Of a stretch of 64,000 nt of DNA, positions 4,504 to 55,508 are shown in pieces. Source of the DNA: Candidatus Collierbacteria bacterium RIFOXYD2_FULL_45_13 (GTDB lineage Bacteria; Patescibacteriota; Microgenomatia; UBA1400; MFAQ01); NCBI GenBank assembly GCA_001774685.1, contig MFAS01000001.1, positions 9,268 through 73,267 on the forward strand. Reading direction: 5' to 3'. The notes beneath the pieces are model-generated. The model was not told where the DNA came from and made no database searches. It worked only from the letters and a program-made list of their open reading frames with translations. Each line of letters starts with the position of its first letter. Within the stretch, counting starts at the first letter, position 1. The position numbers and the translations under genes were made by a program.

Positions 4504-5574
4504 CTACTGATGTTCTTTTAGGAACTCACCGGTCCACATTTCCACATCATTGGCACTGTCAGCCGTCACCAATTTTTTCCTTAGTCCAGAAGAACCATCA
4601 AAACCTTTGGTATATCCCACCAAATGTTTTCTCATTGGAAAAAATTTCATATTGGGAAAAGTTGATTCATATCTAGTTGCATGCTCAGCGGCAACATTCA
4701 GTTTTTCCTGAAGACTGGGGGTATAACCATCTTTTCTCAAAATCCACGGATTACCAATTGCTTCTCTTCCAATCAGAACCCCATCAACTTTTCCTTCAAG
4801 ATCAACTTCTTTCCCATCTTTCAAAACCACTTCAAAATTTACTTTCCCTGTTTTAAGTTCTTGAGTTTTTGAGTTCTTGAGTTCTTTTATGTCCCCATTT
4901 GCCAAAAACTTCGCCCCACTCTCTCGAATGATCTCACCCGCTTTCAATAGTATTTCCCAATCAGCCTCACCGGAATAAAGTTGTTTGAAGGTTCTCCCGT
5001 GCATGGCCACCGCGGGCAGTTCTTGGGAAGCCAAAAACTTCCACCAAGACTCATCCGGCTTGGCACTCCCAATTCTCGTTTTCAAACTTACCGGAATTTC
5101 AATATTTTGATTTTTTGAGTTTTTGATTTTTTGAGTTTTTATATAATCATTTACTCCTTCTCTCGTCGCCTCAATTACCGCCGCCGCCAAGCCCTGGTCA
5201 CGAATGAGACCGGCCCCCCCACCTCTTTTCTCTAACCCAGGTGAGGGACAGCCCATGTTTATATCGATTCCATCAAACCCAAGTTCGCAAATAATCTTTG
5301 TAGCCTCAAAAAAGGAATCCGGATCACTTCCAAAAAGTTGGGCAATTACCGGTCGTTCGGACTCATCATAGATTAAGTCTCTCCAAATTTTATGTTCCAC
5401 CTCGCCTCTTCTTTGAATCCGCCACAATCCTTCAGCACTCACAAACTCTGCATAAATTACATCGGCCAGTCCGTATTTTTTGGCTACAAAGCGCATTGGG
5501 GCATCTGTCACTCCGTCCATCGGTGACAAGCCCACAATTGGATAATCTAGATTTCCCCAAAAACCTTTCTGCAT
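4504..5574 (-). CDS. dus: tRNA-dihydrouridine synthase (Dus family) carrying two in-frame repeat-encoded insertions
   Basis: DGVTDAPMRF...GFDGIDINMGCPSP TIM-barrel motifs. The K/N/S/T/Q-rich insertions are encoded by the 8-nt tandem repeats at 4855-4888 and 5105-5140. Confidence 0.8.
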   Translation of the reverse strand: MQKGFWGNLDYPIVGLSPMDGVTDAPMRFVAKKYGLADVIYAEFVSAEGLWRIQRRGEVEHKIWRDLIYDESERPVIAQLFGSDPDSFFEATKIICELGFDGIDINMGCPSPGLEKRGGGAGLIRDQGLAAAVIEATREGVNDYIKTQKIKNSKNQNIEIPVSLKTRIGSAKPDESWWKFLASQELPAVAMHGRTFKQLYSGEADWEILLKAGEIIRESGAKFLANGDIKELKNSKTQELKTGKVNFEVVLKDGKEVDLEGKVDGVLIGREAIGNPWILRKDGYTPSLQEKLNVAAEHATRYESTFPNMKFFPMRKHLVGYTKGFDGSSGLRKKLVTADSANDVEMWTGEFLKEHQ

Positions 5575-8622: not shown

Positions 8623-10122
<1,500 letters not shown>

Positions 10123-12993: not shown

Positions 12994-14199
12994 CTATTCA
13001 ATCACTCCGCCACCCAAGCATTCTCCTTCGTGGGAGTAGAAGACTGCACTTTGGCCTGGCGCGATTCCTCGAACAGGCTTATCCAATATTACGAGCAAGC
13101 CTCTCTCAATCTCCATCCCCCTAGCACCTATCAACTCCCCTCCATGTCGTATTCTCACGAGCAGATCATTCAGGTTCCATTTTGTGTTCGATACCCTGTT
13201 CACGCTTCCCACTTCAAGCTGATCCCCCATTGCCCCAATCGCCTCCGCCACCACCAGCTCATTCCTCTTGGCGTCTTTCGCTATTACATAAAAAATCGGT
13301 GTCACATCTCCCATTTCGGTTTTTATAGTTTTGAGTTTTTGAGTTTTTGAGTTTTGTAGCCACCCTCCCCTTTGACCTATTGTATAAAACCATACTCCAT
13401 CGTGAGCACCCACCTCGAGGCCTTCAGTATCCAGCACCTTACCGAGAACCACTTTTAGCCTTCTGGCCAAAAACTCTCGCACCTCTACGTTGCCTACAAA
13501 ACAAATCCCTTGACTGTCCTTCCTGTCCGCCACCGAAAGCTTTGCCTCTTTGGCCAGCACTCTAACTTCATTTTTCGTCAAATCTCCCAAAGGGAAAAAT
13601 ACGTGGCTTAATTCCTTTTGCGTCAGCTTCCACAAAAAATAAGTCTGGTCTTTATGCTTATCCTTTGGAATAAAAAGCGAAACCAAATCCGGTACAGAAG
13701 CGGACTCTTTACTCAAAGTTTTCGAGTTTTCGGGTTTTCGAGTTTTTTTCAATTTCGCGTAATGTCCTGTCGCAATATAGTCAAACCCGTTCTCTATCGC
13801 CCAATCCAAAAAAAGCCCAAACTTTATTTCACTATTACAGAGCACGTCCGGATTTGGCGTCCTACCAGCTTCATATTCTTCATAAAAATACTTGATTACT
13901 CTCTGGTTATATTCCTCTGAAAAATCCAACACCTTAAATGGAACCTCCAGTTCCAAAGCGGTTTTAAGTGCCATTTGTCTATCCTCATCCGCCCGACAGC
14001 CGTTTTTCTTGAACCATTCTTCTCGAGTTTTTTCATCCACCCGTCTGCCGGCAGGTAGATCTTTCTCTATCTCACTTTTAGGAGGCCAGCAATAGAGATG
14101 AACTCCGACCACGTCATAGCCTGCCTTTTTCAAAAGCATGGCGCTCACCGCGCTATCAACACCTCCAGAAATCCCAACGGCTACTTTTTTGCGATTCAC
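12994..14199 (-). CDS. mnmA: tRNA-specific 2-thiouridylase MnmA, with two repeat-encoded insertions
   Basis: VAVGISGGVDSAVSA PP-loop and DQTYFLW motif. It is 401 aa, against about 365 aa for typical MnmA. The extra loops are encoded at 13329-13356 and 13717-13750. Confidence 0.9.
   Translation of the reverse strand: MNRKKVAVGISGGVDSAVSAMLLKKAGYDVVGVHLYCWPPKSEIEKDLPAGRRVDEKTREEWFKKNGCRADEDRQMALKTALELEVPFKVLDFSEEYNQRVIKYFYEEYEAGRTPNPDVLCNSEIKFGLFLDWAIENGFDYIATGHYAKLKKTRKPENSKTLSKESASVPDLVSLFIPKDKHKDQTYFLWKLTQKELSHVFFPLGDLTKNEVRVLAKEAKLSVADRKDSQGICFVGNVEVREFLARRLKVVLGKVLDTEGLEVGAHDGVWFYTIGQRGGWLQNSKTQKLKTIKTEMGDVTPIFYVIAKDAKRNELVVAEAIGAMGDQLEVGSVNRVSNTKWNLNDLLVRIRHGGELIGARGMEIERGLLVILDKPVRGIAPGQSAVFYSHEGECLGGGVIE
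13329..13356. repeat. Representative locus of a tandem 8-nt repeat family (TTTTGAGT x3)
   Basis: Other loci are 4855-4888, 5105-5140, 13717-13750, 15582-15609 and 24055-24088. Confidence 0.8.
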
Positions 14200-14441
14200 A
14201 GCCTATATTTTACCTTATCTTTATCTGTTTTACCCAAGTCAACAAATAATATTAGGCTCTCTGCTTCTTCGTCGCTTCTTTTATTCGAAACTCACTCTGC
14301 CCCTGCTTTTTGTCTTTCAATACCTCACTTTTTCTCTCGACACCTTTTTTCAACAGCTCTTCCTTGCTCTCACCAAACTGATTATGAAAACTTGGACTGT
14401 ATACCGTACTCTTCTGCCTCATGAAAAAATTGTAGCATATA

Positions 14442-14630
14442 TTACCCTCTTTTTTCTCCTCCTCCCCCTACAACATCCAGCTTAGGAGCCTCTTTACCCG
14501 TTATCCCCCTCTCTTTTTCCTCTGACCTCCTAAGGGCTTCCTGAACACGTCTTTCTATATCAGCCATCTTCGCTTCTAACTCAGCCGCCTCTTTTTCTTT
14601 TTGTAGTTTGATACGGTCGGTTAAATTCAT
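14442..14630 (-). CDS. Small coiled-coil protein (about 63 aa), hypothetical
   Basis: MNLTDRIKLQKEKEAAELEAKMADIERR... The ORF sits between mnmA and the ATP-grasp gene. Support is weak. Confidence 0.25.
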   Translation of the reverse strand: MNLTDRIKLQKEKEAAELEAKMADIERRVQEALRRSEEKERGITGKEAPKLDVVGGGGEKRG

Positions 14631-14655
14631 GAATAATATTATAACCCGGCTACTT

Positions 14656-15579
14656 TTATATGCTAACCATCCTACCCGCCACATTTATTTCAGGGAAAGC
14701 CTTCTCAAACCACTTAAACTGGGCCGTTCGGTTTACTTCCAATATTCTCCATTGCTTGCTGTCCTCATCCCAGGCCACATCCAAACCGGCAAAGTTTGCC
14801 TTCAAAACCTTCACCGCCTCGACGCTCAATTTCTCCAGCTCAGCCATTTGTTCCTTGGTAAACTTTGGTTTAATTTTAGACAGTTCCTCTTGTTGCGCCA
14901 GCACCTGGAACTTATCTTTTTGTCTATGTTTCATCATACCTAAAACTTCACCATTCAAAACCAGCACACGGTACCATCGTCTGATTTTCAGAACCGGCTG
15001 AATCAAAACGTCTCCCTCACTATATTTCAGAGCTAGCTTATTAAGTCGTACGATCGTCTCAGCCAGTTTTACATTCTTACCGTGAGATCCAAAGCGGGCC
15101 TTTACCATCACCGGAACGAACTCACTTTTTCTCTTTTCCAAAATCTCCGAATATCTCTTCCAACCTCGCTGTCCTCTAAAGGATACAAAGGGAATCACCG
15201 GCAACCCAGCCTCGGCAAGCAGCAATCCTTGTTCGAGTTTACCCATCAAGGGAAAAAACTTAAAACTTTCCCCATTAATAACTTTGATTTCTCTTTCTGC
15301 CGACCTCGTCTGCTCTAGGTATTCCAATATCACCGACTTCACCCCCAGCATCGATTCACCACCCCGTTTGGTAGCCGCTCTGGGGATAATCAGGTCGTAT
15401 TCGTCAAGTTTTCTTCCTGTTCCCAAATCCACTATTGGTCTACCCATTTTGCTCACACCAATCCGGACATGCTCATAATTTACCTTATCCACGCCATACC
15501 CAAGCTTCACGGCCTCCTCCGCCAACCGCCTTGGCTCATACTCACCCCTAAATCTGGTTAGTATTAATATCTTTTTCAT
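14656..15579 (-). CDS. RimK-like ATP-grasp ligase (alpha-L-glutamate ligase family), paralog 1
   Basis: RimK-type N-terminus plus an ATP-grasp core (PVMVKARFGSHGKNV). Its start overlaps the stop of the upstream ATP-grasp gene. Confidence 0.7.
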   Translation of the reverse strand: MKKILILTRFRGEYEPRRLAEEAVKLGYGVDKVNYEHVRIGVSKMGRPIVDLGTGRKLDEYDLIIPRAATKRGGESMLGVKSVILEYLEQTRSAEREIKVINGESFKFFPLMGKLEQGLLLAEAGLPVIPFVSFRGQRGWKRYSEILEKRKSEFVPVMVKARFGSHGKNVKLAETIVRLNKLALKYSEGDVLIQPVLKIRRWYRVLVLNGEVLGMMKHRQKDKFQVLAQQEELSKIKPKFTKEQMAELEKLSVEAVKVLKANFAGLDVAWDEDSKQWRILEVNRTAQFKWFEKAFPEINVAGRMVSI

Positions 15580-16511
15580 TATTTTGATTTTTTGAGTTTT
15601 TGAGTTTTTCCGAACTTTTCAACACAATACTCCAATATTTTCCTAGCTGCATTTATTTTTGTTCTTTTTTCGAACACTTTGAACTGGGGGGCCTCATTTA
15701 CTTCGATGATATAAACTTTTCCATTTTCGGTGCTCCTCACCAAGTCAGTCCCGGCCACTTCCACCCCAAGGACTCTCGCCGCCGCCTCAGCTGTCTCCTT
15801 GACATCATCCGGCAAGTCCACACCAAGTGACCGTCCCAAGCTTTTATTCAATATCAACTTTTCTTCTTTCACTTGGCGCTTAAATCCTCCCAAACACTTA
15901 TAGCCAACCGTCATAACTCTAAAGTCTCCATCATTCTTTATATACTCTTGCACCAAGAAACCACGGAAGACTGGTACCTTTTTATTAGCCAACCTTGCCT
16001 TTTCCTTCCTTCCTTCCAGAACGTGTTTCAGTTTCTCCAAGTCTGCCAGCTCTCTTACCCAAAAAGTTCCCATCCCGTGTCTGCCACCAGCCGACAGTTT
16101 CACAATGGCCGGTAACTCCCAAGACCCCAGCTCTTTTTCCAAGTCCTTAAAGCTCTCTACATACGCCGACTTAGGATAAAGAACACCAGCATCTGCTAAT
16201 TGCCAGCTCATTACCGACTTAAATCTTCTCAATGGTCCATCAGTCATCAAGTACTCATCCACTACAGATACATTATGTTTCTTGGCGTAGAGCTGCAGCA
16301 ACTTACTCCACTCCAACTCCGATCCTACAGACCGAAAGTACCACCCATCAAAGCTCTTCATGTCCATCTCCCCAAACATAATTTTATCGCCTACCAGTTT
16401 CAGTTTTCTGTACTTTACCGGCACCAATTCAATTCCCAAAACACCTGCCTCGTCTTGAAACCTTTTCTCACTCTCGTCAAATGTCAGTCTGTGTAGATAT
16501 GCAATTTTCAT
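15579..16511 (-). CDS. RimK-like ATP-grasp ligase, paralog 2
   Basis: LPAIVKLSAGGRHGMGTFWV ... YIIEVNEAPQF ATP-grasp motifs. The C-terminus (KFGKTQKLKKSK) is encoded by the 8-nt repeat. Confidence 0.7.
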   Translation of the reverse strand: MKIAYLHRLTFDESEKRFQDEAGVLGIELVPVKYRKLKLVGDKIMFGEMDMKSFDGWYFRSVGSELEWSKLLQLYAKKHNVSVVDEYLMTDGPLRRFKSVMSWQLADAGVLYPKSAYVESFKDLEKELGSWELPAIVKLSAGGRHGMGTFWVRELADLEKLKHVLEGRKEKARLANKKVPVFRGFLVQEYIKNDGDFRVMTVGYKCLGGFKRQVKEEKLILNKSLGRSLGVDLPDDVKETAEAAARVLGVEVAGTDLVRSTENGKVYIIEVNEAPQFKVFEKRTKINAARKILEYCVEKFGKTQKLKKSK

Positions 16512-16553
16512 ATTCAGTTAATTAAATTCATTTACCAAACATCTTTGAAGGTG

Positions 16554-16636
16554 CAGAAGACTAGCCAACAACCGCACGCAGGCGGGAACCCGGTACTCCA
16601 GGGAGATCCGAGTACGGTTTTGGCGGGCTTCGAACC
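16554..16636. repeat. Copy 1 of a conserved 82-nt intergenic element (CAGAAGACTAG..CCGCACGCAGGCGGGA..CCGGTACTCcagggagatcCGAGTACGG..GGCGGGCTTCGAACC)
   Basis: Near-identical copies at 48611-48692 and 55427-55508. It contains two conserved hairpins. Confidence 0.8.
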
Positions 16637-16661
16637 AATAAGATGTTTCATAATAATATTT

Positions 16662-17966
16662 CTACTTTCTAATTTTTACCAGACCAGGATCCACCACAAA
16701 CTCTCTCAGATCCCGTCGCCCGATTAATAACTGCCTTCTCAGGTTTTTTCTGTCCGTCACACTCGCTCTGGTCTTGATTATTCTACCCTTAAGCTTGAGA
16801 GTTAGGGCAATCAGAGTTCTCTCCTCAATACCCAGGGAATTTTTTACCTTCTTTGTCCACAATACATTTTCTGGAGTCAGCAATCCTAACTCAAGCGCCA
16901 GGGAATAATCAATCGACGAGCTCCTGGCTCCGGTATCAATTTTCGCGTTTAGCTCAACCATTTTCTTCTTCCCGTTTCGTACTTTTATTTTTTCGAAGAT
17001 ACCCACCACCGGCTTCTCTTCCCCTATGAATCGGACTCTATTGGCGAACTTGCTGGCAAAAAGGGCCTTACCGATTTTGACCCCTTTTTCGGCCTCCTCC
17101 ACTTCTAGCCCCTCAACTCTCTCCAATCTTCTCCGCAAACCAGCCATGTTCGCGATCTGAATAGACAAACCAGGCTGATCATTTAGCTCCAAGACCACCG
17201 GACCTTTTTCTTCGTCAATCAGCATGTCTACGGACAGGTAGTTTAATTTAGAAATAATCTGTGTCTCTACAGCCATCTTTAATATTTTGTTCCAATAAGG
17301 AATTGTTATTCCGTTCACTTTATTATTAGAATCCGGAAAATATTTCACCGATCTGTTTTTGTACACTCCGTGAGTCGTAATTCCCGTCGCAATATCAATC
17401 CCCAACCCGATGGCTCCTTGGTGGAGATTGGCTTTACCGTTACTTTCATCCGTTGGCAGGCGCAACATAGCCATCACCGGAATGTTATTGTAGACAATCA
17501 CCCGAACGTCAGGGGCTCCACCCACCGCCAATTTTTTAAACTTTGGATGTATCTTTATTCTTTCCTCGATCATCGCTTTGTCCGGCAAATTGTTATGTGA
17601 GTACTTTCCTTCTGCGATATCCATTGAGTGCAAGATCAAATCTTCAACTTTTATCTTTTTATCGTCCACTGTCAAAAACACCCCGTTCTCCTTCGCCGCC
17701 CTTTTAACTAAGACGATTCCTTGCCCTCCAAACCCTTGAACCGGTTTAATCGCAAACCCCTCTTTCAACTTATTCCAGTTATACAGTCGGGCAGCCTTTG
17801 CGTTCCCAATAGTTCCCAATAATCCTGGATGAGCCACTCCGGCTTTTTTAAGCATCTTCTTGGTGAGTAATTTGTCATCCGCCCTACGCCGAGCACTCTT
17901 CAGATTCAGCAGCAAGTAATCAGCCGAACGGGCATTTAGACCCAATATGTCGGATAGTTTTGGCAT
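16662..17966 (-). CDS. Alpha-L-glutamate-ligase-like ATP-grasp protein fused to a C-terminal retropepsin-like (DUF785, 'ATP-dependent Zn protease') aspartyl peptidase domain
   Basis: N-terminal 330 aa have the ATP-grasp pattern (KPVQGFGGQGIVLV ... LELNDQPGL). The C-terminus carries the AKIDTGARSS D-T-G-A motif. Confidence 0.65.
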   Translation of the reverse strand: MPKLSDILGLNARSADYLLLNLKSARRRADDKLLTKKMLKKAGVAHPGLLGTIGNAKAARLYNWNKLKEGFAIKPVQGFGGQGIVLVKRAAKENGVFLTVDDKKIKVEDLILHSMDIAEGKYSHNNLPDKAMIEERIKIHPKFKKLAVGGAPDVRVIVYNNIPVMAMLRLPTDESNGKANLHQGAIGLGIDIATGITTHGVYKNRSVKYFPDSNNKVNGITIPYWNKILKMAVETQIISKLNYLSVDMLIDEEKGPVVLELNDQPGLSIQIANMAGLRRRLERVEGLEVEEAEKGVKIGKALFASKFANRVRFIGEEKPVVGIFEKIKVRNGKKKMVELNAKIDTGARSSSIDYSLALELGLLTPENVLWTKKVKNSLGIEERTLIALTLKLKGRIIKTRASVTDRKNLRRQLLIGRRDLREFVVDPGLVKIRK

Positions 17967-18832
17967 TATTTGGATAATAGCTTTCTAAATCGCCAAACCT
18001 CTGACAACCTTAATCCTTTATATTTCCCAATGAGCAGGTCCAGCACCAGAATCAAAATTGCCGATATTTCCGGCTGCAACAGGATCTGATTCTGGATCCA
18101 AGTCGAACTCATCAGCTTATAGGCAATAAATGCCAGAATTATTGTCTCCATTGTCATCCCCAGAGATGTCGAAACGCTTCTCGTAATTTGGGTTTCTATA
18201 AACGTCTCTGCTAATAGGACAAAAATCATAATCGGGAAAATACCCACGTTCATTAATCTCTCTAAACCAATCATCGGAGACATAATTAGAAGCCCCAGCA
18301 CCGCAATTGAAATTAACCAAATCAATACGGCCAATTTAGGTAAATAGGGAATCCTGGCTTTCTTTATAGCCATTCGTCCAAAAACAGCCGATGTCATCAC
18401 GAAAGATAAAAGTACCAACCCAACCATCCCTCCGGTCGACACAAAAGCAATAGATAGCAACGCCGGTACGATCATTCCAAAGCCATTAACTCCGACCACT
18501 TGTCGTGAAAATGCCACCAAAGCAGCTACCAGTGGAAAGAGGAAAAGCAAAACAAGTGTGTTTGGCGACACCCCATCAGCCACGGCTTTTCGAATCGCCA
18601 GTTTCAGCGAGTTCACGACCCACCAACCCTTCACCTGTTGAGTTTCCAATAAAGTCGTTAACCTGTCCCCGTCTGCTTTGGGAACCGTAAGATCAATTTC
18701 TTGAGTCTCTTGTTGGGCAGAACCGGTCGCCACAATTTCCCCAAAAGAAGGCTTTTGAGAGTTCACTGCCAAAATTCCGACAGGAAGGCTAAAAAAACAG
18801 AGCAATGTCAGGATTATTACCATTCTTTTCAT
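17966..18832 (-). CDS. Polytopic membrane protein: signal peptide, an extracytoplasmic domain of about 100 aa, then 7 TM helices (7TM_transglut-like)
   Basis: Hydrophobicity pattern. Its stop overlaps the start of the ATP-grasp/retropepsin gene. The topology matches the 7TM partner of RimK-associated systems. Confidence 0.5.
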   Translation of the reverse strand: MKRMVIILTLLCFFSLPVGILAVNSQKPSFGEIVATGSAQQETQEIDLTVPKADGDRLTTLLETQQVKGWWVVNSLKLAIRKAVADGVSPNTLVLLFLFPLVAALVAFSRQVVGVNGFGMIVPALLSIAFVSTGGMVGLVLLSFVMTSAVFGRMAIKKARIPYLPKLAVLIWLISIAVLGLLIMSPMIGLERLMNVGIFPIMIFVLLAETFIETQITRSVSTSLGMTMETIILAFIAYKLMSSTWIQNQILLQPEISAILILVLDLLIGKYKGLRLSEVWRFRKLLSK

Positions 18833-18926
18833 GTCACGTATTTTACCGCATATCGAGATGGCAAACCAGTCGTTTGCCCTAATAAGTTGACAAATACGTA
18901 AAATTGTTACATTCTATATCTATATT

Positions 18927-20009
18927 ATGAAAAACTCTTACGGCCCAAGTTCGTTTGGTTTATCAAAAAAACTTCCCAATAGGCACATCAAAGCCCTATG
19001 GTTAATCGCCCTTTTGGTTATAGGCCTTCCATTGTTGGCCTTTGCCGCCAGTTTGACCACTAATCTAACCCCCAAAGCCTTCACCCCCACCGGCCAAACG
19101 ATCTGCAAAGAGGCCGTCAAAACCTATAAGTTTGAAAAGCCCTGCACCTTGCCCAGTATTAGCCCAAGCAACACTCCTAGCGTTACACCCACCGGTATCG
19201 CCGGAGGTGGAGTTAATAGGGCATATTACAGTATTACTTATACTTGTATAGATGGTTATCAGGGCACGATCGACGAGAAGTCCTGCCAGTCTGGTAACAA
19301 GCTTTTGACCCAAGTGTATGCTATTTGTGGCGAACACAGCCGAATCAAAAGTCTTTCCTATGCAGACCCTTGCCGTCCGACTTTCACCACACCCACCGTT
19401 ACTGTAGCTCCTAGCCCCACCACCTCTGGTCCTCAATACTACAAGACGGTAAACTACGTCTGTGCAGACGGTTACGCGGGAGTATACACATCCGTTTGTC
19501 AGAACCGAAGAGATCTCTCGGATCAGGTCATGGGTTTGTGTAAGAACCATTCAATCTGTCCCAAACCATCAGCAACACCTACCCTTACAACCACCATTAT
19601 CCCCACGAGGACTATCACCCCGATTCCACCCATTACCATTACCGATACAGTTACAAGCAATGTCGCGCCAGTAATAACCACCACCGTCCTACCGGCCGGA
19701 AACATAAACTCCACCTACGGTGGCAGCGTGGACGCCATCGATGCCAATCAAAAAGATCAGCTAACAATGACCATGTCCGGGTTACCCTTTGGACTGAGCC
19801 AAGGTCCTTGCGCTTCTTTGAGCACCGGAGGCAAAATTACCTGCTACATTTCCGGCACACCGGCAAACACAGGTATTTATACCGTCAAAGTGAACGTCAA
19901 AGATAATCGTGGAGGTTCGACAGACAAATCTCTCACCCTCTCCGTGTATGAAGGACGGCCAAGTCCCACACCTCTCTTTACGCCCATCGTTCCGCCACCA
20001 ATCAACTAG
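18927..20009 (+). CDS. Membrane-anchored extracellular protein with two Cys-rich tandem modules, Pro/Thr linkers and a C-terminal putative-Ig (He_PIG/cadherin-like) domain
   Basis: N-terminal hydrophobic anchor. The module Y..Y.C.DGY.G....C...QV...C..HS is repeated. The C-terminal domain LP.G...Y.....A.D...D.L...SGLP.GL......G.I.GTP...G.Y...V...D..G is shared with the next ORF. Confidence 0.55.
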   Translation: MKNSYGPSSFGLSKKLPNRHIKALWLIALLVIGLPLLAFAASLTTNLTPKAFTPTGQTICKEAVKTYKFEKPCTLPSISPSNTPSVTPTGIAGGGVNRAYYSITYTCIDGYQGTIDEKSCQSGNKLLTQVYAICGEHSRIKSLSYADPCRPTFTTPTVTVAPSPTTSGPQYYKTVNYVCADGYAGVYTSVCQNRRDLSDQVMGLCKNHSICPKPSATPTLTTTIIPTRTITPIPPITITDTVTSNVAPVITTTVLPAGNINSTYGGSVDAIDANQKDQLTMTMSGLPFGLSQGPCASLSTGGKITCYISGTPANTGIYTVKVNVKDNRGGSTDKSLTLSVYEGRPSPTPLFTPIVPPPIN

Positions 20010-20088: not shown

Positions 20089-20751
20089 ATGGAAAATCAG
20101 AATGTTCCGCTCCAACCGGTTAACATCGAAGCCCCTTCACTGGAAAAACCCAAAAACTTTTACCAACGGCTTTCCGCAAAACAAAGAAAGTCCATCATTG
20201 TTATCATCCTCATCGCCATTTTTCTTCCGATAGTTACCGCTGTCTCCCTGCTCGCTACGAGAATCAATTCCAAAGCTTTTCTTCCCGGGAGTATCGTTAC
20301 TCCCATTCCCACACGCACACCCCGCACCTCTCCTACGGTTGGCACTATCCACGGAAATCCGACCCCTCCACCCATCTCCACTCCTTCTGTTATTACACCT
20401 ACTACTGTGGGCAACGTCTCACCTCAAATCACCACTACATCTTTGCCCATGGCTTTTGCCGGAAAGCCATATTCGGCTACCATGGACGCCACGGACGCAA
20501 ACATCACAGACGTCTTGTCTCTGACCGCCACAGGACTTCCAACGGGTCTTACCCTCGGCTCATGTGCCTCAATTACCAACAGCGGACAAATTACTTGTAC
20601 CATTACAGGCACCGCCACCGTGATCAAATCATACAACGTCCTTATCACCGCCACCGACAATCAAGGCGGTTCAATTTCCAAATACTTCCCCTTGTCTGTG
20701 GTTGTAATACCTGTACAGTCCGGCCCGGGTGGTATTGAAGTCGTCGAATAA
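20089..20751 (+). CDS. Paralogous membrane-anchored protein with a Pro/Thr-rich linker and a He_PIG-like domain
   Basis: TM anchor IIVIILIAIFLPIVTAVSLLA. The He_PIG-like domain aligns with the 18927..20009 C-terminus. Confidence 0.55.
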   Translation: MENQNVPLQPVNIEAPSLEKPKNFYQRLSAKQRKSIIVIILIAIFLPIVTAVSLLATRINSKAFLPGSIVTPIPTRTPRTSPTVGTIHGNPTPPPISTPSVITPTTVGNVSPQITTTSLPMAFAGKPYSATMDATDANITDVLSLTATGLPTGLTLGSCASITNSGQITCTITGTATVIKSYNVLITATDNQGGSISKYFPLSVVVIPVQSGPGGIEVVE

Positions 20752-20816: not shown

Positions 20817-21548
20817 TTATTTGGCGGGAGCAAAGATATCGTCATGCATCTCCCAGAACTTACCCTGCTCGCCGGCACACAGAGCTGCTTCAGCGGCCTT
20901 CTGTGCACTTGGGTGAAAGGACAAAGGGAAGCTCTTATACTCCAAGCTAATTTTACCTTTGTACTTCTCCATAATCGCTTTTACTGTTGGGAAAGCTTTC
21001 TCGCAATAAGGGCATTCAAAATCCGTGAACTCCACTATTTTAATTTTTGCATTCGACGGTCCGTCTACATAACTTTTGGCCAGGTTCATAGTCAGCCTCT
21101 TACCGCTTTCCCCAAGAGCCGCTGCGGCCTTATCCCCCGACCCATTCTTAAGCTCTGCATCAATTACACTTTCAAACGAAGATTGTGGTTGGGCTCCCAC
21201 CAACATGACTCCATTTATGATAAAGGACGGGGTTCCGCTTACTCCCAAAGCCGCTCCTTCTTTCTGTTCACTTGCCACTCTTTCTGCCATTGTTCCACCA
21301 TCTAAGCACTGATCAAACTTTGTCGCATCCAGACCAAATTTTTTGGCTCTAGCTTTCATGCTAGCCACATCAAGTTGTCTTTCTGGAGCTTGAACCTGTG
21401 TCGGAGCCGTCGTATCCGTTCCAGCAACGTTATTCTTCAGTCCCTCCACCTGGGAAGACAATCTCCCTACATAGAAAGAAGCCACAATTAGTAACAACAC
21501 CAGGATAGGTGTGTAAAGGGTTTGTAAACCGGTTTTTTTATCTGACAT
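20817..21548 (-). CDS. dsbA: DsbA-like thiol:disulfide oxidoreductase, membrane-anchored
   Basis: CPYC active site in FTDFECPYCEKAF. N-terminal TM helix. Confidence 0.75.
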   Translation of the reverse strand: MSDKKTGLQTLYTPILVLLLIVASFYVGRLSSQVEGLKNNVAGTDTTAPTQVQAPERQLDVASMKARAKKFGLDATKFDQCLDGGTMAERVASEQKEGAALGVSGTPSFIINGVMLVGAQPQSSFESVIDAELKNGSGDKAAAALGESGKRLTMNLAKSYVDGPSNAKIKIVEFTDFECPYCEKAFPTVKAIMEKYKGKISLEYKSFPLSFHPSAQKAAEAALCAGEQGKFWEMHDDIFAPAK

Positions 21549-24033: not shown

Positions 24034-24106
24034 AATTCTACCACTCCAACACCTCGTTTTTTTGAGATTTAGAGTTTTAGAGTTTTTTCTAGATATAATC
24101 AATTCA

Positions 24107-41722: not shown

Positions 41723-42085
41723 ATCATTTAGTTTGTATTTTAATAACAAAAAACCCTGGTCAAACCCCAATAAAATATTGGAATTAGACAAGGGTCTTTT
41801 AACAAGACGGTACCACCTTGTTTCTTCACCCTCTCACGATGGTGAACTTCAAAAGTGCTCTGTTTTCCACTAGGGTGACACACTCATTTTCTATGACGGG
41901 AAAGACCCGGACCTTGTTACCAATGTCTGCTCAGGAGGGTTAATTCAACGAATAAAGTCCGGCTTGCTTTCACCACCCGCAAACTCTCTGTTGTCACCTT
42001 TTTTCGCCTACTACTTCTCCTTCAACGCATTTATTAATCTTTTAAAGAATACACAAATTTACCAATTTCATCAGCCCGTGTCAAT
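41723..42085 (-). promoter_or_regulatory. T-box-like leader: promoter, Stem-I-like region with AGAGA and GGUGA motifs, T-box core GGUGGUACCG, and terminator hairpin with U-tract
   Basis: Minus-sense AAGGUGGUACCGUC (+ strand 41806-41820) matches the T-box core GGUGGNACCGCG at 10 of 12 positions. Terminator CCCUUGUC...GACCAGGGUUUUUU lies at 41747-41794. A TTGACA-17-TAAATT promoter lies at 42056-42084. Confidence 0.4.
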
Positions 42086-48610: not shown

Positions 48611-48692
48611 CAGAAGACTAGTCAACAACCGCACGCAGGCGGGACCCGGTACTCCAGGGAGATCCGAGTACGGTTTTGACGGGCTTCGAACC
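48611..48692. repeat. Copy 2 of the 82-nt intergenic element
   Basis: About 95% identical to 16554-16636. It ends about 30 nt upstream of the thrS start. Confidence 0.8.
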
Positions 48693-55426: not shown

Positions 55427-55508
55427 CAGAAGTCTAGCCAATAACCGCACGCAGGCGGGACCCGGTACTCCAGGGAGATCCGAGTACGGTTTTGGCGGAC
55501 TTCGAACC
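55427..55508. repeat. Copy 3 of the 82-nt intergenic element
   Basis: About 93% identical to the other two copies. It lies between trxA and trxB. Confidence 0.8.

What the first reader, a model, noticed from the sequence alone, without database searches (positions are those of the whole stretch)
14656..18832. Four-gene predicted peptide-modification system: three RimK-like ATP-grasp ligases (one fused to a retropepsin-like peptidase) plus a 7TM membrane protein
Four minus-strand genes overlap at their stop/start codons: 17966-18832, 16662-17966, 15579-16511 and 14656-15579. The first is a signal peptide, an extracytoplasmic domain and 7 TM helices, as in the inactive-transglutaminase-associated 7TM proteins. 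The second is an alpha-L-glutamate-ligase-like ATP-grasp fused to a retropepsin-like domain (DTGA motif) of the DUF785 'ATP-dependent Zn protease' family. The last two are RimK-type ATP-grasp paralogs. This combination of ATP-grasp, DUF785 peptidase and 7TM protein is predicted only from comparative genomics to be a peptide-ligating and peptide-processing system, and has not been tested experimentally. Here it is expanded with two extra ligases and uses a fused ligase-peptidase. In a reduced symbiont-like genome this points to a membrane-associated peptide tagging or polyglutamylation system. Copy 1 of the 82-nt element sits between the genes.
Basis: partly seen in the sequence, partly recalled or inferred. 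Interest (0 to 1): 0.72.

Follow-up and report, generated by a model that had tools for sequence, protein, structure and literature searches.

The report
Membrane-linked peptide ligase-protease gene cluster
This is a real four-gene cluster, conserved across a whole class of ultra-small (CPR) bacteria, that joins amino-acid-ligating enzymes, a fused retroviral-type protease and a seven-helix membrane protein; it is a rearranged relative of the Pseudomonas Rlo stress-tolerance system, whose chemistry is still unknown.

Summary
The genome is a Candidatus Collierbacteria (Microgenomates, CPR).

- **Linkage:** in 72 of 72 related genome loci with enough upstream sequence, the 7TM gene sits directly before the ligase-protease fusion. 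It is followed by 0 to 3 (usually 2) RimK-type ligase genes.
- **Homology:** the system is related to RloABC of Pseudomonas aeruginosa, which was studied experimentally in 2025. "Never tested" is therefore out of date.
- **Differences from Rlo:** the 7TM protein has no transglutaminase domain. The retropepsin has no signal peptide and is fused to the cytoplasmic RloC-like ligase, so it is RimB-like in location. Two very divergent RimK-family ligases are added.
- **Active sites:** the catalytic DTGA and the basic residues matching RloA's poly-glutamate contacts are conserved.
- **Supporting fusions in other CPR relatives:** 7TM+ligase, and ligase+retropepsin+MATCAP (a carboxypeptidase family that trims acidic tubulin tails), usually with a degenerate DTG.

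Best reading: a membrane-docked system that builds and trims acidic (Glu-rich) peptides or tails. The substrate is unknown. I rate it a new variant of a known kind, of moderate interest.

The parts
17966..18832 (-). 7TM membrane protein (RloB-like 7TM module only). It has an N-terminal signal or anchor helix (aa 5-23), a conserved outside segment of about 67 aa, seven predicted TM helices (aa ~90-270) and a basic cytoplasmic C-terminal helix. There is no transglutaminase domain.
   Evidence: PF14402 E=8e-25. NF052267 RloB is matched only at model positions 313-506/508. Hydropathy. AF2 helices, (pLDDT 61). Adjacent to the fusion in 72/72 loci. 7TM+ATP-grasp single-chain fusions exist elsewhere (P0233, P0238).
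17052..17966 (-). ATP-grasp ligase domain of the fusion protein (aa 1-305). It is RloC-like, of the alpha-L-glutamate-ligase-like type. The Mg-ATP residues D247, E260 and N262 are invariant.
   Evidence: PF14397 E=2.5e-65. TIGR02291 scores 279.9 bits over model 10-308/317, below the 314.2 cut-off. Invariant columns in A1. The nearest unfused relatives pass TIGR02291. No TM segment (max KD19 0.94).
16662..17051 (-). Linker plus the C-terminal retropepsin-like aspartic peptidase domain of the fusion (aa 306-434, plus the stop codon). It belongs to the DUF785/RimB/RloA family.
   Evidence: PF05618 E=2.6e-11 and PF13650. A profile of 21 orthologous domains hits the RloA structures 9g59 (3e-8) and 9g58 (2e-7), and DUF785 2pma. 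Foldseek hits to Ddi1, foamy-virus protease, 2pma and 9g58.
16926..16937 (-). Catalytic D-T-G-A motif (aa 344-347), preceded by the conserved K342.
   Evidence: D344, G346 and A347 are invariant and T345 is >=90% conserved in A1. K37, D39, G41 and A42 are invariant in A3, with T40 nearly invariant.
16555..16636 (.). Copy 1 of an 82-nt palindromic intergenic element, lying in the 150-nt gap between the fusion gene and RK1. It is probably not a functional part of the system.
   Evidence: It is absent from most relatives, whose genes abut or overlap.
15579..16511 (-). RK1: a divergent RimK-family ATP-grasp ligase.
   Evidence: PF08443 E=6e-19. TIGR00768 scores 89.7 bits (cut-off 143.4). PDB hits to ArgX 3vpb, Pseudomonas RimK 7qys and E. 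coli RimK 4iwx. The E-x-N motif is kept in 47/54 orthologous ORFs.
14656..15579 (-). RK2: a second, very divergent RimK-family ATP-grasp ligase with a RimK pre-ATP-grasp N-domain.
   Evidence: PF08443 E=1.6e-11 and PF18030 Rimk_N E=2e-7. End-to-end alignment to E. coli RimK 5zct/4iwx. Only 28% identity to RK1 over 116 aa. The E-x-N motif is kept in 32/37 orthologous ORFs.

Best explanation
**Shown.** This is the Microgenomates (CPR) form of the Rlo/Rim type of ATP-grasp ligase, retropepsin and 7TM system. The core is a pair that is always linked: a 7TM membrane protein homologous to the membrane module of RloB, and a soluble protein that fuses an RloC-family ATP-grasp ligase to a retropepsin-like peptidase with an intact active site. 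Two anciently diverged RimK-family ligases are accessory members of the operon.

**Inferred mechanism.**
- The cytoplasmic ligases use ATP to add amino acids, most likely L-glutamate, to a carboxylate. They make either free oligo- or poly-glutamate, or an acidic C-terminal tail on an acceptor that has not been identified. The three different ligases probably divide the work (starting versus extending the chain, or adding different residues).
- The fused retropepsin should form a dimer within the ligase oligomer and cut long acidic chains. This would set chain length or release the product in the same compartment, as RimB does for RimK.
- The 7TM protein holds the complex at the membrane through its cytoplasmic face. 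It then either passes the product outward or couples ligase activity to conditions in the envelope. Its outside module varies between lineages: short here, PKD or transglutaminase elsewhere.
- By analogy with Rlo, the physiological role is envelope or osmotic homeostasis.
For: **Homology.** Searches give the domain and structure matches. The nearest unfused relatives, at 36-44% identity to the ligase domain, are bona fide TIGR02291 (RloC-family) proteins.

**Linkage.** 72/72 loci have an adjacent 7TM gene. 64/71 have at least one downstream RimK-type gene, and two is the commonest number. Flanking genes differ between loci.

**Informative fusions among the best 150 cluster representatives.**
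- 9 are 7TM+ATP-grasp, which places the 7TM C-terminus and the ligase on the same (cytoplasmic) side.
- 53 are ATP-grasp+retropepsin.
- 32 are ATP-grasp+retropepsin+MATCAP, and 12 are ATP-grasp+MATCAP.

**MATCAP link.** MATCAP/TMCP enzymes remove C-terminal Tyr and Glu and posttranslational polyglutamylation from acidic tubulin tails (PMC10499314). In the MATCAP fusions the retropepsin DTG motif is usually degenerate (29/32), while the MATCAP HExxxH motif is kept in all eight MATCAP fusions I checked. This looks like one peptidase replacing the other beside the same ligase.

**Acidic substrate.**
- RloA and RimB cleave runs of 8 or more Glu. RloA K46 was predicted, and R114 and R137 were shown, to matter for that (PMC12239564).
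- The aligned positions here, K342, R383 and R406, are invariant or >=90% conserved, as is the catalytic D344.
- The fusion protein is strongly basic (78 K+R against 47 D+E).

**Cytoplasmic peptidase.** There is no signal peptide or hydrophobic segment anywhere in the fusion.

**Genetics in Pseudomonas.** Deleting rloB or rloC suppresses the defects of the rloA1-3 triple mutant. That fits a ligase and 7TM pair making something the peptidase must remove.
Against: - No enzyme activity, product or acceptor is known for RloC or for any member of this CPR family. Glutamate specificity is extrapolated from RimK and from the peptidase's preference.
- The ligase domain scores below the TIGR02291 cut-off. 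RK1 and RK2 score far below the RimK equivalog cut-offs.
- PF14397 is named "sugar-transfer associated", and one relative fuses a YdjC-like carbohydrate deacetylase (P0124). A non-peptide acceptor is therefore possible.
- The 7TM protein has invariant acidic residues inside its helices (E209, E213, E229, E255, D265). These are not what one would expect in a channel for a polyanion.
- No protein with an acidic C-terminal tail is encoded in the 64-kb window.
- Both AF2 models are of low confidence (pLDDT 53 and 61), and the 7TM model has no structural relative in the PDB.
- The residue mapping to RloA K46, R114 and R137 assumes a +20 numbering offset between the 9g58 chain (P. fluorescens RloA) and the P. 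aeruginosa precursor numbering used in the paper.
Confidence: 0.5

Rival explanations
1. The system modifies the envelope rather than making peptide tails. The ATP-grasp enzymes would amidate or aminoacylate a carboxylate on a glycan, a peptidoglycan precursor or a lipid-linked intermediate. The 7TM protein would be the membrane acceptor, scaffold or flippase. The peptidase would process a protein partner.
For: - PF14397 is annotated as sugar-transfer associated.
- P0124 fuses a YdjC-like deacetylase.
- L088 has a GalT gene next to the cluster.
- Rlo mutants show cell-shape, beta-lactam and hypoosmotic phenotypes, which the authors discuss in terms of peptidoglycan.
- The acidic residues inside the 7TM helices fit a cationic or neutral substrate better than poly-Glu.
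Against: - The always-linked partner of the ligase is a peptidase, either retropepsin or MATCAP, including a carboxypeptidase family that acts on acidic peptide tails.
- RloA and RimB are poly-Glu endopeptidases, and the basic residues matching RloA's poly-Glu contacts are conserved here.
- No glycosyltransferase or Mur-type gene is consistently adjacent in the loci whose called genes carry Pfam annotations.
Confidence: 0.2
2. Two unrelated functions happen to lie side by side. RK1 and RK2 would be ordinary RimK enzymes that polyglutamylate ribosomal protein S6, while the 7TM and fusion pair does something else.
For: - RK1 and RK2 hit RimK models and RimK crystal structures.
- The number of RimK-type genes varies from 0 to 3 while the core pair is constant.
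- In this genome a 150-nt gap with a repeat element separates RK1 from the fusion gene.
Against: - Scores are far below the S6-ligase equivalog cut-off: PRK10446 gives 44.8 and 25.3 bits against 331.
- In most relatives RK1 abuts or overlaps the fusion gene on the same strand.
- The S6 of a Shapirobacteria relative that carries the same system is about 95 aa and ends ...RYLIVLKF, with no acidic tail. Its homologues are the same.
- Two to three distinct ligases are more than S6 tailing needs.
Confidence: 0.1
3. The cluster matures a ribosomally made peptide (a graspetide or microviridin-like RiPP). The ATP-grasp enzymes would form macrocycles on a precursor peptide, the retropepsin would remove the leader, and the 7TM protein would export the product.
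For: - Several ATP-grasp enzymes with a protease and a membrane protein resembles RiPP clusters.
- RK1 and RK2 give weak hits to TIGR04187 (22.9 and 16.1 bits).
- Small ORFs lie just downstream (14252-14422 and 14442-14684).
Against: - The TIGR04187 hits are trivial against a cut-off of 350.
- No small ORF family is conserved across the 80 loci. The two small ORFs occur only in close Collierbacteria relatives (3 and 15 loci), have basic or Gly-rich ends and match no family.
- The system is near-universal and vertically conserved in a class of reduced genomes, which is unlike accessory RiPP clusters.
Confidence: 0.05

Closest known systems
RloABC operon of Pseudomonas aeruginosa and Gammaproteobacteria (Lormand et al., mBio 2025, PMC12239564)
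   Same: It has the same three protein families in one operon: a TIGR02291-type ATP-grasp (RloC), a PF14402 7TM module (RloB) and a DUF785 retropepsin (RloA). The catalytic Asp is conserved, and so are the basic residues that match RloA's poly-Glu contacts.
   Different: - Here the peptidase is fused to the C-terminus of the ligase and has no signal peptide, so it is cytoplasmic. RloA is secreted.
- The 7TM protein has no inactive transglutaminase domain.
- Two extra RimK-family ligases are present.
- The host is a CPR bacterium, not a proteobacterium. Lormand et al. report 96% of RloB hits in Proteobacteria.
- All scores are below the Rlo equivalog cut-offs.
RimK-RimB(-RimA) ribosomal protein S6 polyglutamylation system of Pseudomonas and E. 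coli
   Same: A cytoplasmic ATP-grasp alpha-L-glutamate ligase works with a cytoplasmic retropepsin that trims poly-Glu. RimB binds RimK physically, which parallels the covalent fusion here. RK1 and RK2 are RimK-family proteins.
   Different: - The fused ligase is RloC-type, not RimK.
- A 7TM partner is obligatory here.
- S6 in a related CPR genome has no acidic tail.
- The RimK and RimB equivalog cut-offs are not met.
- No RimA is present.
ATP-grasp, DUF785 peptidase and 7TM-inactive-transglutaminase system predicted by comparative genomics (Iyer, Abhiman, Burroughs and Aravind 2009, the source of the Pfam families PF14397 and PF14402)
   Different: I could not read the paper. I therefore cannot say whether the fused form without a transglutaminase domain, found in CPR bacteria, or the MATCAP fusions, were already noted there.
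Eukaryotic tubulin-tail writers and erasers: TTL/TTLL ATP-grasp ligases with MATCAP/TMCP and CCP carboxypeptidases (PMC10499314)
   Same: This is a functional analogy. ATP-grasp ligases add Glu or Tyr to acidic C-terminal tails and dedicated peptidases remove them. CPR relatives of this very ligase are fused to a MATCAP-family domain with an intact HExxxH motif.
   Different: No tubulin-like acceptor is known. The window's own protein has a retropepsin rather than MATCAP. There is no homology between TTLL enzymes and RloC beyond the ATP-grasp fold.
LysX/ArgX-LysW amino-group carrier protein ligases
   Same: RK1's best PDB sequence match is ArgX (3vpb, E=1.5e-12). These RimK-family enzymes ligate onto the C-terminal Glu of a small carrier protein.
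   Different: No LysW-like carrier gene (zinc ribbon with an EDWGE tail) and no lysine or arginine biosynthesis genes lie nearby. The LysX_arch score is 71 bits against a cut-off of 276.

Membership tests
RloABC system | RloC: an ATP-grasp of the TIGR02291 (alpha-L-glutamate ligase-like) equivalog | tested here: not met
   279.9 bits against a cut-off of 314.2, although the alignment covers model positions 10-308/317. The nearest unfused relatives score 333-440 bits. It is a homologue, not an equivalog-level member.
RloABC system | ATP-grasp of Pfam family PF14397 (ATPgrasp_ST) | tested here: met
   220.9 bits against a cut-off of 31.4, E=2.5e-65.
RloABC system | RloB: 7TM module (PF14402) | tested here: met
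   88.2 bits against a cut-off of 25.
RloABC system | RloB: periplasmic inactive transglutaminase domain N-terminal to the 7TM module | tested here: not met
   NF052267 is matched only at positions 313-506/508 (59.8 bits against 900). There is no transglutaminase Pfam hit, and only about 67 residues lie between the N-terminal helix and the first TM helix.
RloABC system | RloA: a stand-alone retropepsin with an N-terminal signal peptide (secreted) | tested here: not met
   The domain is fused at aa ~320-434 of the soluble ligase. The fusion has no hydrophobic segment (max KD19 0.94). RloA3 scores 30.2 bits against a cut-off of 210.
RloABC system | Retropepsin catalytic D-T/S-G and basic substrate-channel residues (RloA K46, R114, R137) | tested here: met
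   K342, D344, R383 and R406 are invariant or >=90% conserved. They align to K26, D28, R94 and R117 of 9g58. The mapping to the paper's numbering assumes a +20 offset.
RloABC system | The three components are encoded together | tested here: met
   72/72 loci have an adjacent 7TM gene, and the peptidase is fused to the ligase.
RloABC system | Role in hypoosmotic tolerance; poly-Glu cleavage by the peptidase | not testable with these tools
   This needs genetics and enzymology. The organism is uncultured.
RimK-RimB S6 modification system | RimK equivalog (PRK10446 / NF007764) or RimK subfamily (TIGR00768) score | tested here: not met
   RK1 scores 44.8 and RK2 25.3 bits against a cut-off of 331. 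TIGR00768 gives 89.7 and 64.2 bits against 143.4. Only the Pfam RimK domain cut-off is met.
RimK-RimB S6 modification system | RimB equivalog (NF052261) | tested here: not met
   24.7 bits against a cut-off of 200.
RimK-RimB S6 modification system | Acceptor: ribosomal protein S6 with a C-terminal Glu-Glu tail | tested here: inconclusive
   The S6 of a Shapirobacteria relative with the same cluster (L046) and its homologues are about 95 aa with no acidic tail. The S6 of this Collierbacteria genome is not in the window.
Graspetide / ATP-grasp RiPP clusters | A conserved precursor peptide gene next to the ATP-grasp maturase(s) | tested here: not met
   No small-ORF family is conserved across the 80 loci. 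TIGR04187 scores 22.9 and 16.1 bits against a cut-off of 350.
Anti-phage defence systems (PADLOC) | Any match to a defence-system protein model | tested here: not met
   No hits at E<=0.001 for any of the four proteins.

The most novel reading that the evidence does not exclude
Microgenomates and other CPR bacteria carry a near-universal, membrane-docked writer and eraser machine for acidic peptide tails or oligo-glutamate. ATP-grasp ligases would be covalently joined to their own trimming peptidase, either a retropepsin or a MATCAP-type carboxypeptidase. This would be a bacterial counterpart, and possibly the evolutionary source, of the eukaryotic tubulin-tail ligase and MATCAP logic. The fused form would also show that the still-unknown product of RloC in pathogens is a cytoplasmically made poly-Glu species that the 7TM partner handles.
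Probability: 0.25. Interest if true: 0.8.

Novelty: new variant of a known kind. Interest (0 to 1): 0.5.

Why it matters
The biochemical job of RloB and RloC, which affect antibiotic tolerance, biofilm formation and cell shape in P. aeruginosa, is still open.

The CPR form offers natural fusion evidence on that question. The ligase and the peptidase sit in one polypeptide and therefore in one compartment. The 7TM protein is fused to the ligase in other lineages. A MATCAP carboxypeptidase replaces the retropepsin in others. Together these argue that the ligase product is a peptide or peptide tail that must be trimmed, and that the 7TM protein works directly with the ligase.

The system is also kept in genomes of under 1 Mb across a whole CPR class. 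That implies an important and unstudied part of their envelope or osmotic physiology. The proteins are compact and soluble, which makes them convenient for in vitro work.

Tried and rejected
- **AF2 of the fusion.** With a 13-sequence alignment the model was poor (pLDDT 53). Only the retropepsin part was usable. Foldseek still recovered retropepsins, RloA, ArgX and RimK.
- **AF2 of the 7TM protein.** pLDDT was 61, and Foldseek against the PDB gave nothing (best E 2.9, TM<0.25). No transporter or receptor fold could be assigned.
- **Full-length phmmer of the fusion against the PDB.** It found nothing. A profile of the C-terminal domain was needed.
- **Iyer et al. 2009.** The paper could not be fetched.
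- **Literature searches.** Searches for DUF1704 or MATCAP with ATP-grasp, and for Patescibacteria with RimK, found no paper on the CPR system.
- **S6 hypothesis.** S6 is not in the window. A relative's S6 has no acidic tail.
- **RiPP hypothesis.** No conserved precursor gene was found.
- **Defence-system hypothesis.** No PADLOC hits.
- **Promoter and terminator scan of 14000-19200.** Counts were at or below shuffle expectation, so it was uninformative.
- **Rfam.** No family matches the 82-nt element.
- **A numbering error corrected.** I first assumed 9g58 was P. aeruginosa RloA. One search shows it is P. fluorescens RloA, and 9g59 is P. aeruginosa RloA2. The residue-number mapping is therefore an inference.

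Full report
**1. Observation**

Two junctions are one-base TAATG overlaps: 7TM/fusion and RK1/RK2. The fusion/RK1 junction is a 150-nt gap. That gap holds one of three copies of an 82-nt palindromic element.

- PF14402 7TM_transglut: E=8e-25.
- PF14397 ATPgrasp_ST: E=2.5e-65.
- TIGR02291: E=2e-83, but 279.9 bits against a cut-off of 314.2.
- PF05618 (DUF785, "Zn_protease"): E=2.6e-11 at the C-terminus of the same protein, with DTGA at residues 344-347.
- PF08443 RimK for the last two genes. The last one also has a RimK pre-ATP-grasp N-domain.
- PF14401 did not hit.

**2. Source organism and conservation**

The best homologues of the fusion are from Candidatus Collierbacteria (92% identity). 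A 7TM homologue with 100% identity over 92% of the query exists in ENA. The window therefore comes from a Microgenomates (CPR/Patescibacteria) genome.

A scan of one genome per GTDB species found 547 loci that encode relatives. The best 80 are all Microgenomates-type contigs: Collier-, Woese-, Shapiro- and Blackburnbacteria, and one labelled Paceibacterota. Several carry obviously wrong record titles.

I searched the stop-to-stop ORFs of these loci with the window's proteins.
- 72 of 72 loci with at least 900 nt upstream have the 7TM gene directly before the fusion gene on the same strand.
- Of 71 loci with at least 2.1 kb downstream, 7, 20, 41 and 3 have 0, 1, 2 and 3 RimK-type ORFs respectively.

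Precomputed Pfam annotations of three independent contigs give the same four-gene order with different flanking genes.

The core is therefore the 7TM and fusion pair, and the RimK-type ligases are frequent accessories. RK1 and RK2 share only 28% identity over 116 aa, so they are ancient paralogues. Their E-x-N metal and ATP motif is kept in most orthologues.

**3. What it is related to**

NCBIfam's hits to "RloB osmotic stress tolerance membrane protein", "RloA retropepsin-like peptidase" and "RimB" led me to Lormand et al. 2025 (PMC12239564). Their findings for P. aeruginosa:
- The rlo operon encodes a secreted retropepsin (RloA), an inner-membrane protein with a periplasmic inactive transglutaminase domain and 7TM helices (RloB), and a cytoplasmic ATP-grasp (RloC).
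- Loss of the three RloA paralogues causes hypoosmotic lethality and defects in biofilm formation, antibiotic tolerance and cell shape. Deleting rloB or rloC suppresses these defects.
- RloA and the cytoplasmic RimB cleave runs of at least 8 glutamates.
- RloC's product is unknown.

The chemistry, however, is still open.

**4. How this locus differs from Rlo**

(a) The 7TM protein matches only positions 313-506 of the 508-position RloB model. Only about 67 conserved residues lie between an N-terminal signal or anchor helix and the TM bundle, so there is no transglutaminase domain.

(b) The retropepsin is the C-terminal domain of the ligase. The fusion has no hydrophobic segment, so the peptidase must be cytoplasmic. 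This resembles RimB with RimK, and differs from the secreted RloA.

(c) Two RimK-family ligases are added.

The ligase domain itself is RloC-like. Its closest unfused relatives (36-44% identity in the representative search) pass the TIGR02291 cut-off at 333-440 bits.

**5. The peptidase domain looks active and suited to acidic substrates**

- In 13 full-length orthologues D344, G346 and A347 are invariant, T345 is >=90% conserved, and the IGRRD motif (415-419) is invariant.
- In 21 more divergent domains K342, D344 and R406 are invariant, and R383 and R417 are >=90% conserved.
- A profile of these domains hits the RloA crystal structures 9g59 (E=3e-8) and 9g58 (2e-7) and the DUF785 protein 2pma.
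- Foldseek of the confident part of the AF2 model finds Ddi1 and foamy-virus retropepsins, 2pma and 9g58.
- In the HMM alignment, K342, D344, R383 and R406 align with K26, D28, R94 and R117 of 9g58. With a +20 offset these are the K46, D48, R114 and R137 that Lormand et al. implicate in poly-Glu binding and catalysis. The offset is my inference, because 9g58 is the P. fluorescens orthologue.
- The fusion protein is strongly basic, with 78 K+R against 47 D+E.

**6. Evidence from domain fusions in other lineages**

An exhaustive HMMER search of 1.84 billion cluster representatives found 399 relatives at E<=1e-30. The architectures of the best 150 are:

| Architecture | Count |
|---|---|
| ATP-grasp + retropepsin | 53 |
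| ATP-grasp + retropepsin + MATCAP (PF08014) | 32 |
| ATP-grasp + MATCAP | 12 |
| 7TM + ATP-grasp (one also with a transglutaminase core) | 9 |
| ATP-grasp alone | 44 |

- The 7TM+ligase fusions place the C-terminus of the 7TM module on the ligase's (cytoplasmic) side. This agrees with the basic C-terminal helix here.
- MATCAP/TMCP enzymes are carboxypeptidases that remove C-terminal Tyr and Glu and polyglutamylation from acidic tubulin tails (PMC10499314).
- In the MATCAP fusions the retropepsin DTG signature is mostly degenerate: 29 of 32 lack D[TS]G[AS], and the sampled alignment shows DTS, EPG, NPN and ETG. The MATCAP HExxxH motif is intact in all eight I checked. This looks like one trimming peptidase replacing another beside the same ligase.
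- One such CPR locus (L087) encodes PKD-7TM, the ligase-retropepsin-MATCAP fusion, three further ATP-grasp ligases and a second MATCAP. Another (L088) has the 7TM gene followed by ligase-retropepsin-ATP-grasp.
- The outside module of the 7TM protein thus varies (short, PKD or transglutaminase), while the 7TM and ligase pairing is constant.

**7. Mechanism**

*Shown:* homology, obligatory linkage, intact active-site motifs, a cytoplasmic peptidase, and fusion evidence for a 7TM-ligase-peptidase functional unit.

*Inferred:*
- The ligases build an acidic, probably Glu-rich, peptide or C-terminal tail.
- The fused retropepsin dimer trims or releases it.
- The 7TM protein docks the complex and either exports the product or couples it to the state of the envelope.
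- The three ligases divide the work.

My confidence in this combined reading is about 0.5.

**8. Rivals**

- *Envelope-polymer or peptidoglycan amidation (about 0.2).* It is supported by the Pfam family's "sugar-transfer" annotation, a YdjC fusion and the Rlo phenotypes. It does not explain the invariable peptidase partner.
- *Ordinary S6 modification by RK1 and RK2 (about 0.1).* The equivalog scores are very low. S6 proteins of a relative carrying the same cluster are about 95 aa with no acidic tail.
- *A RiPP cluster (about 0.05).* There is no conserved precursor gene.
- *A defence system.* There are no PADLOC hits.

**9. Verdict**

The locus is a new variant of a known kind. It is an Rlo/Rim-type system rearranged for a CPR cell: the peptidase is fused and intracellular, there is no transglutaminase domain, and extra ligases are present. 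It is standard across Microgenomates rather than peculiar to this genome.

I found no paper that describes the CPR form or the MATCAP fusions in the held library. I could not read the 2009 comparative-genomics paper.

Interest is moderate at 0.5. The parts are annotated and the family is known. However, the natural fusions bear directly on the open question of what RloB and RloC do, and they point to a conserved, unstudied function in ultra-small bacteria.

Noticed in passing
window 16555-16636, 48611-48692, 55427-55508: An 82-nt element occurs in three copies, all in the same orientation. Each lies 30-45 nt upstream of a minus-strand start codon: RK1, threonyl-tRNA synthetase and thioredoxin reductase. 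It folds as one long imperfect hairpin (minus-strand RNA -34 to -46 kcal/mol, z -2.6 to -5.0), with compensatory differences between copies. There is no Rfam match. The downstream genes share no function, so a REP/MITE-like repeat seems more likely than a riboswitch.
   Followed up: partly
L030 3660-3733 (contig CAZUFH010000099.1): The same 82-nt element is 97% identical at the nucleotide level over 74 nt, in a genome whose fusion protein is only about 63% identical. There it sits after RK1 instead of before it, in the same orientation relative to the operon. Such high conservation suggests either mobility or strong constraint. Short remnants appear in L019 (7328-7346, in the fusion/RK1 gap) and L014.
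   Followed up: partly
window 14252-14422 (-) and 14442-14684 (-): Two small ORFs lie between RK2 and mnmA. The first is 56 aa (MRQKSTVYSPSFHNQF...EFRIKEATKKQRA) and is conserved just downstream of RK2 in 15 Collierbacteria-type loci. The second is about 62 aa and ends ITGKEAPKLDVVGGGGEKRG; it is conserved in only 3 loci. Neither matches a Pfam family. Neither is conserved across the wider family, so I did not count them as parts of the system.
   Followed up: partly
L087 1870-10678; P0131 and 43 other cluster representatives: Other CPR lineages fuse the same ligase to a MATCAP-family (PF08014) metallocarboxypeptidase. The HExxxH motif is intact and the retropepsin DTG is usually degenerate. 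L087 has PKD-7TM, ligase-retropepsin-MATCAP, three more ATP-grasp genes and a second MATCAP. This places bacterial MATCAP homologues in a ligase and eraser context, which I did not find described in the held literature.
   Followed up: partly
L044, L050, L057 and 11 other Woesebacteria-type loci, directly upstream of the 7TM gene: A small conserved helix-turn-helix protein (excisionase/MerR-like: ...LLTVREVAELLRVSPLTIKRWGKRGKLP.IRINSRGDRRY...) lies directly upstream of the 7TM gene in 14 loci. It may be a regulator of the operon in those lineages. It is absent from the window.
   Followed up: no
window 18927-20009 (+) and 20089-20751 (+): Divergently transcribed from the operon are two probable surface proteins. 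Each has an N-terminal membrane anchor and Pro/Thr-rich linkers, and the second hits the He_PIG Ig-like domain (PF05345, E=3e-7). They are not conserved next to the system in relatives.
   Followed up: no
window 4843-5152, 13305-13368, 13704-13751, 15566-15621, 24052-24099: A repeat with an 8-nt period (TTTTTGAG on the + strand) recurs at these positions. At the sites I checked it lies inside minus-strand genes and encodes Lys-rich K(T/S)QKLK-type stretches: the C-terminus of RK1 (KTQKLKKSK), two sites in MnmA, and the N-terminus of LeuRS. The meaning is unknown.
   Followed up: no
window 8626-10122 (-) and 41787-42034 (-): A complete bacterial 16S rRNA gene (1380 bits) and a T-box leader (96 bits, just above the gathering score) are the only Rfam matches in the window.
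   Followed up: no
L009, L010, L012, L015, L062, L065 and others (record titles): Many contigs that carry this clearly Microgenomates-type cluster are titled "uncultured Pseudomonadales", "uncultured Gammaproteobacteria", "Spirochaetia", "Bathyarchaeia" or "Woesearchaeota". These are probably placeholder or mis-binned labels, so record titles are unreliable for judging taxonomic spread.
   Followed up: no
window 20817-21548 (-): This is a DsbA/thioredoxin-fold protein in which the Pfam matches appear in swapped order: DSBA C-terminal part at aa 64-129, Thioredoxin_4 N-terminal part at aa 160-240. That suggests a circular permutation or a duplicated and truncated domain.
   Followed up: no
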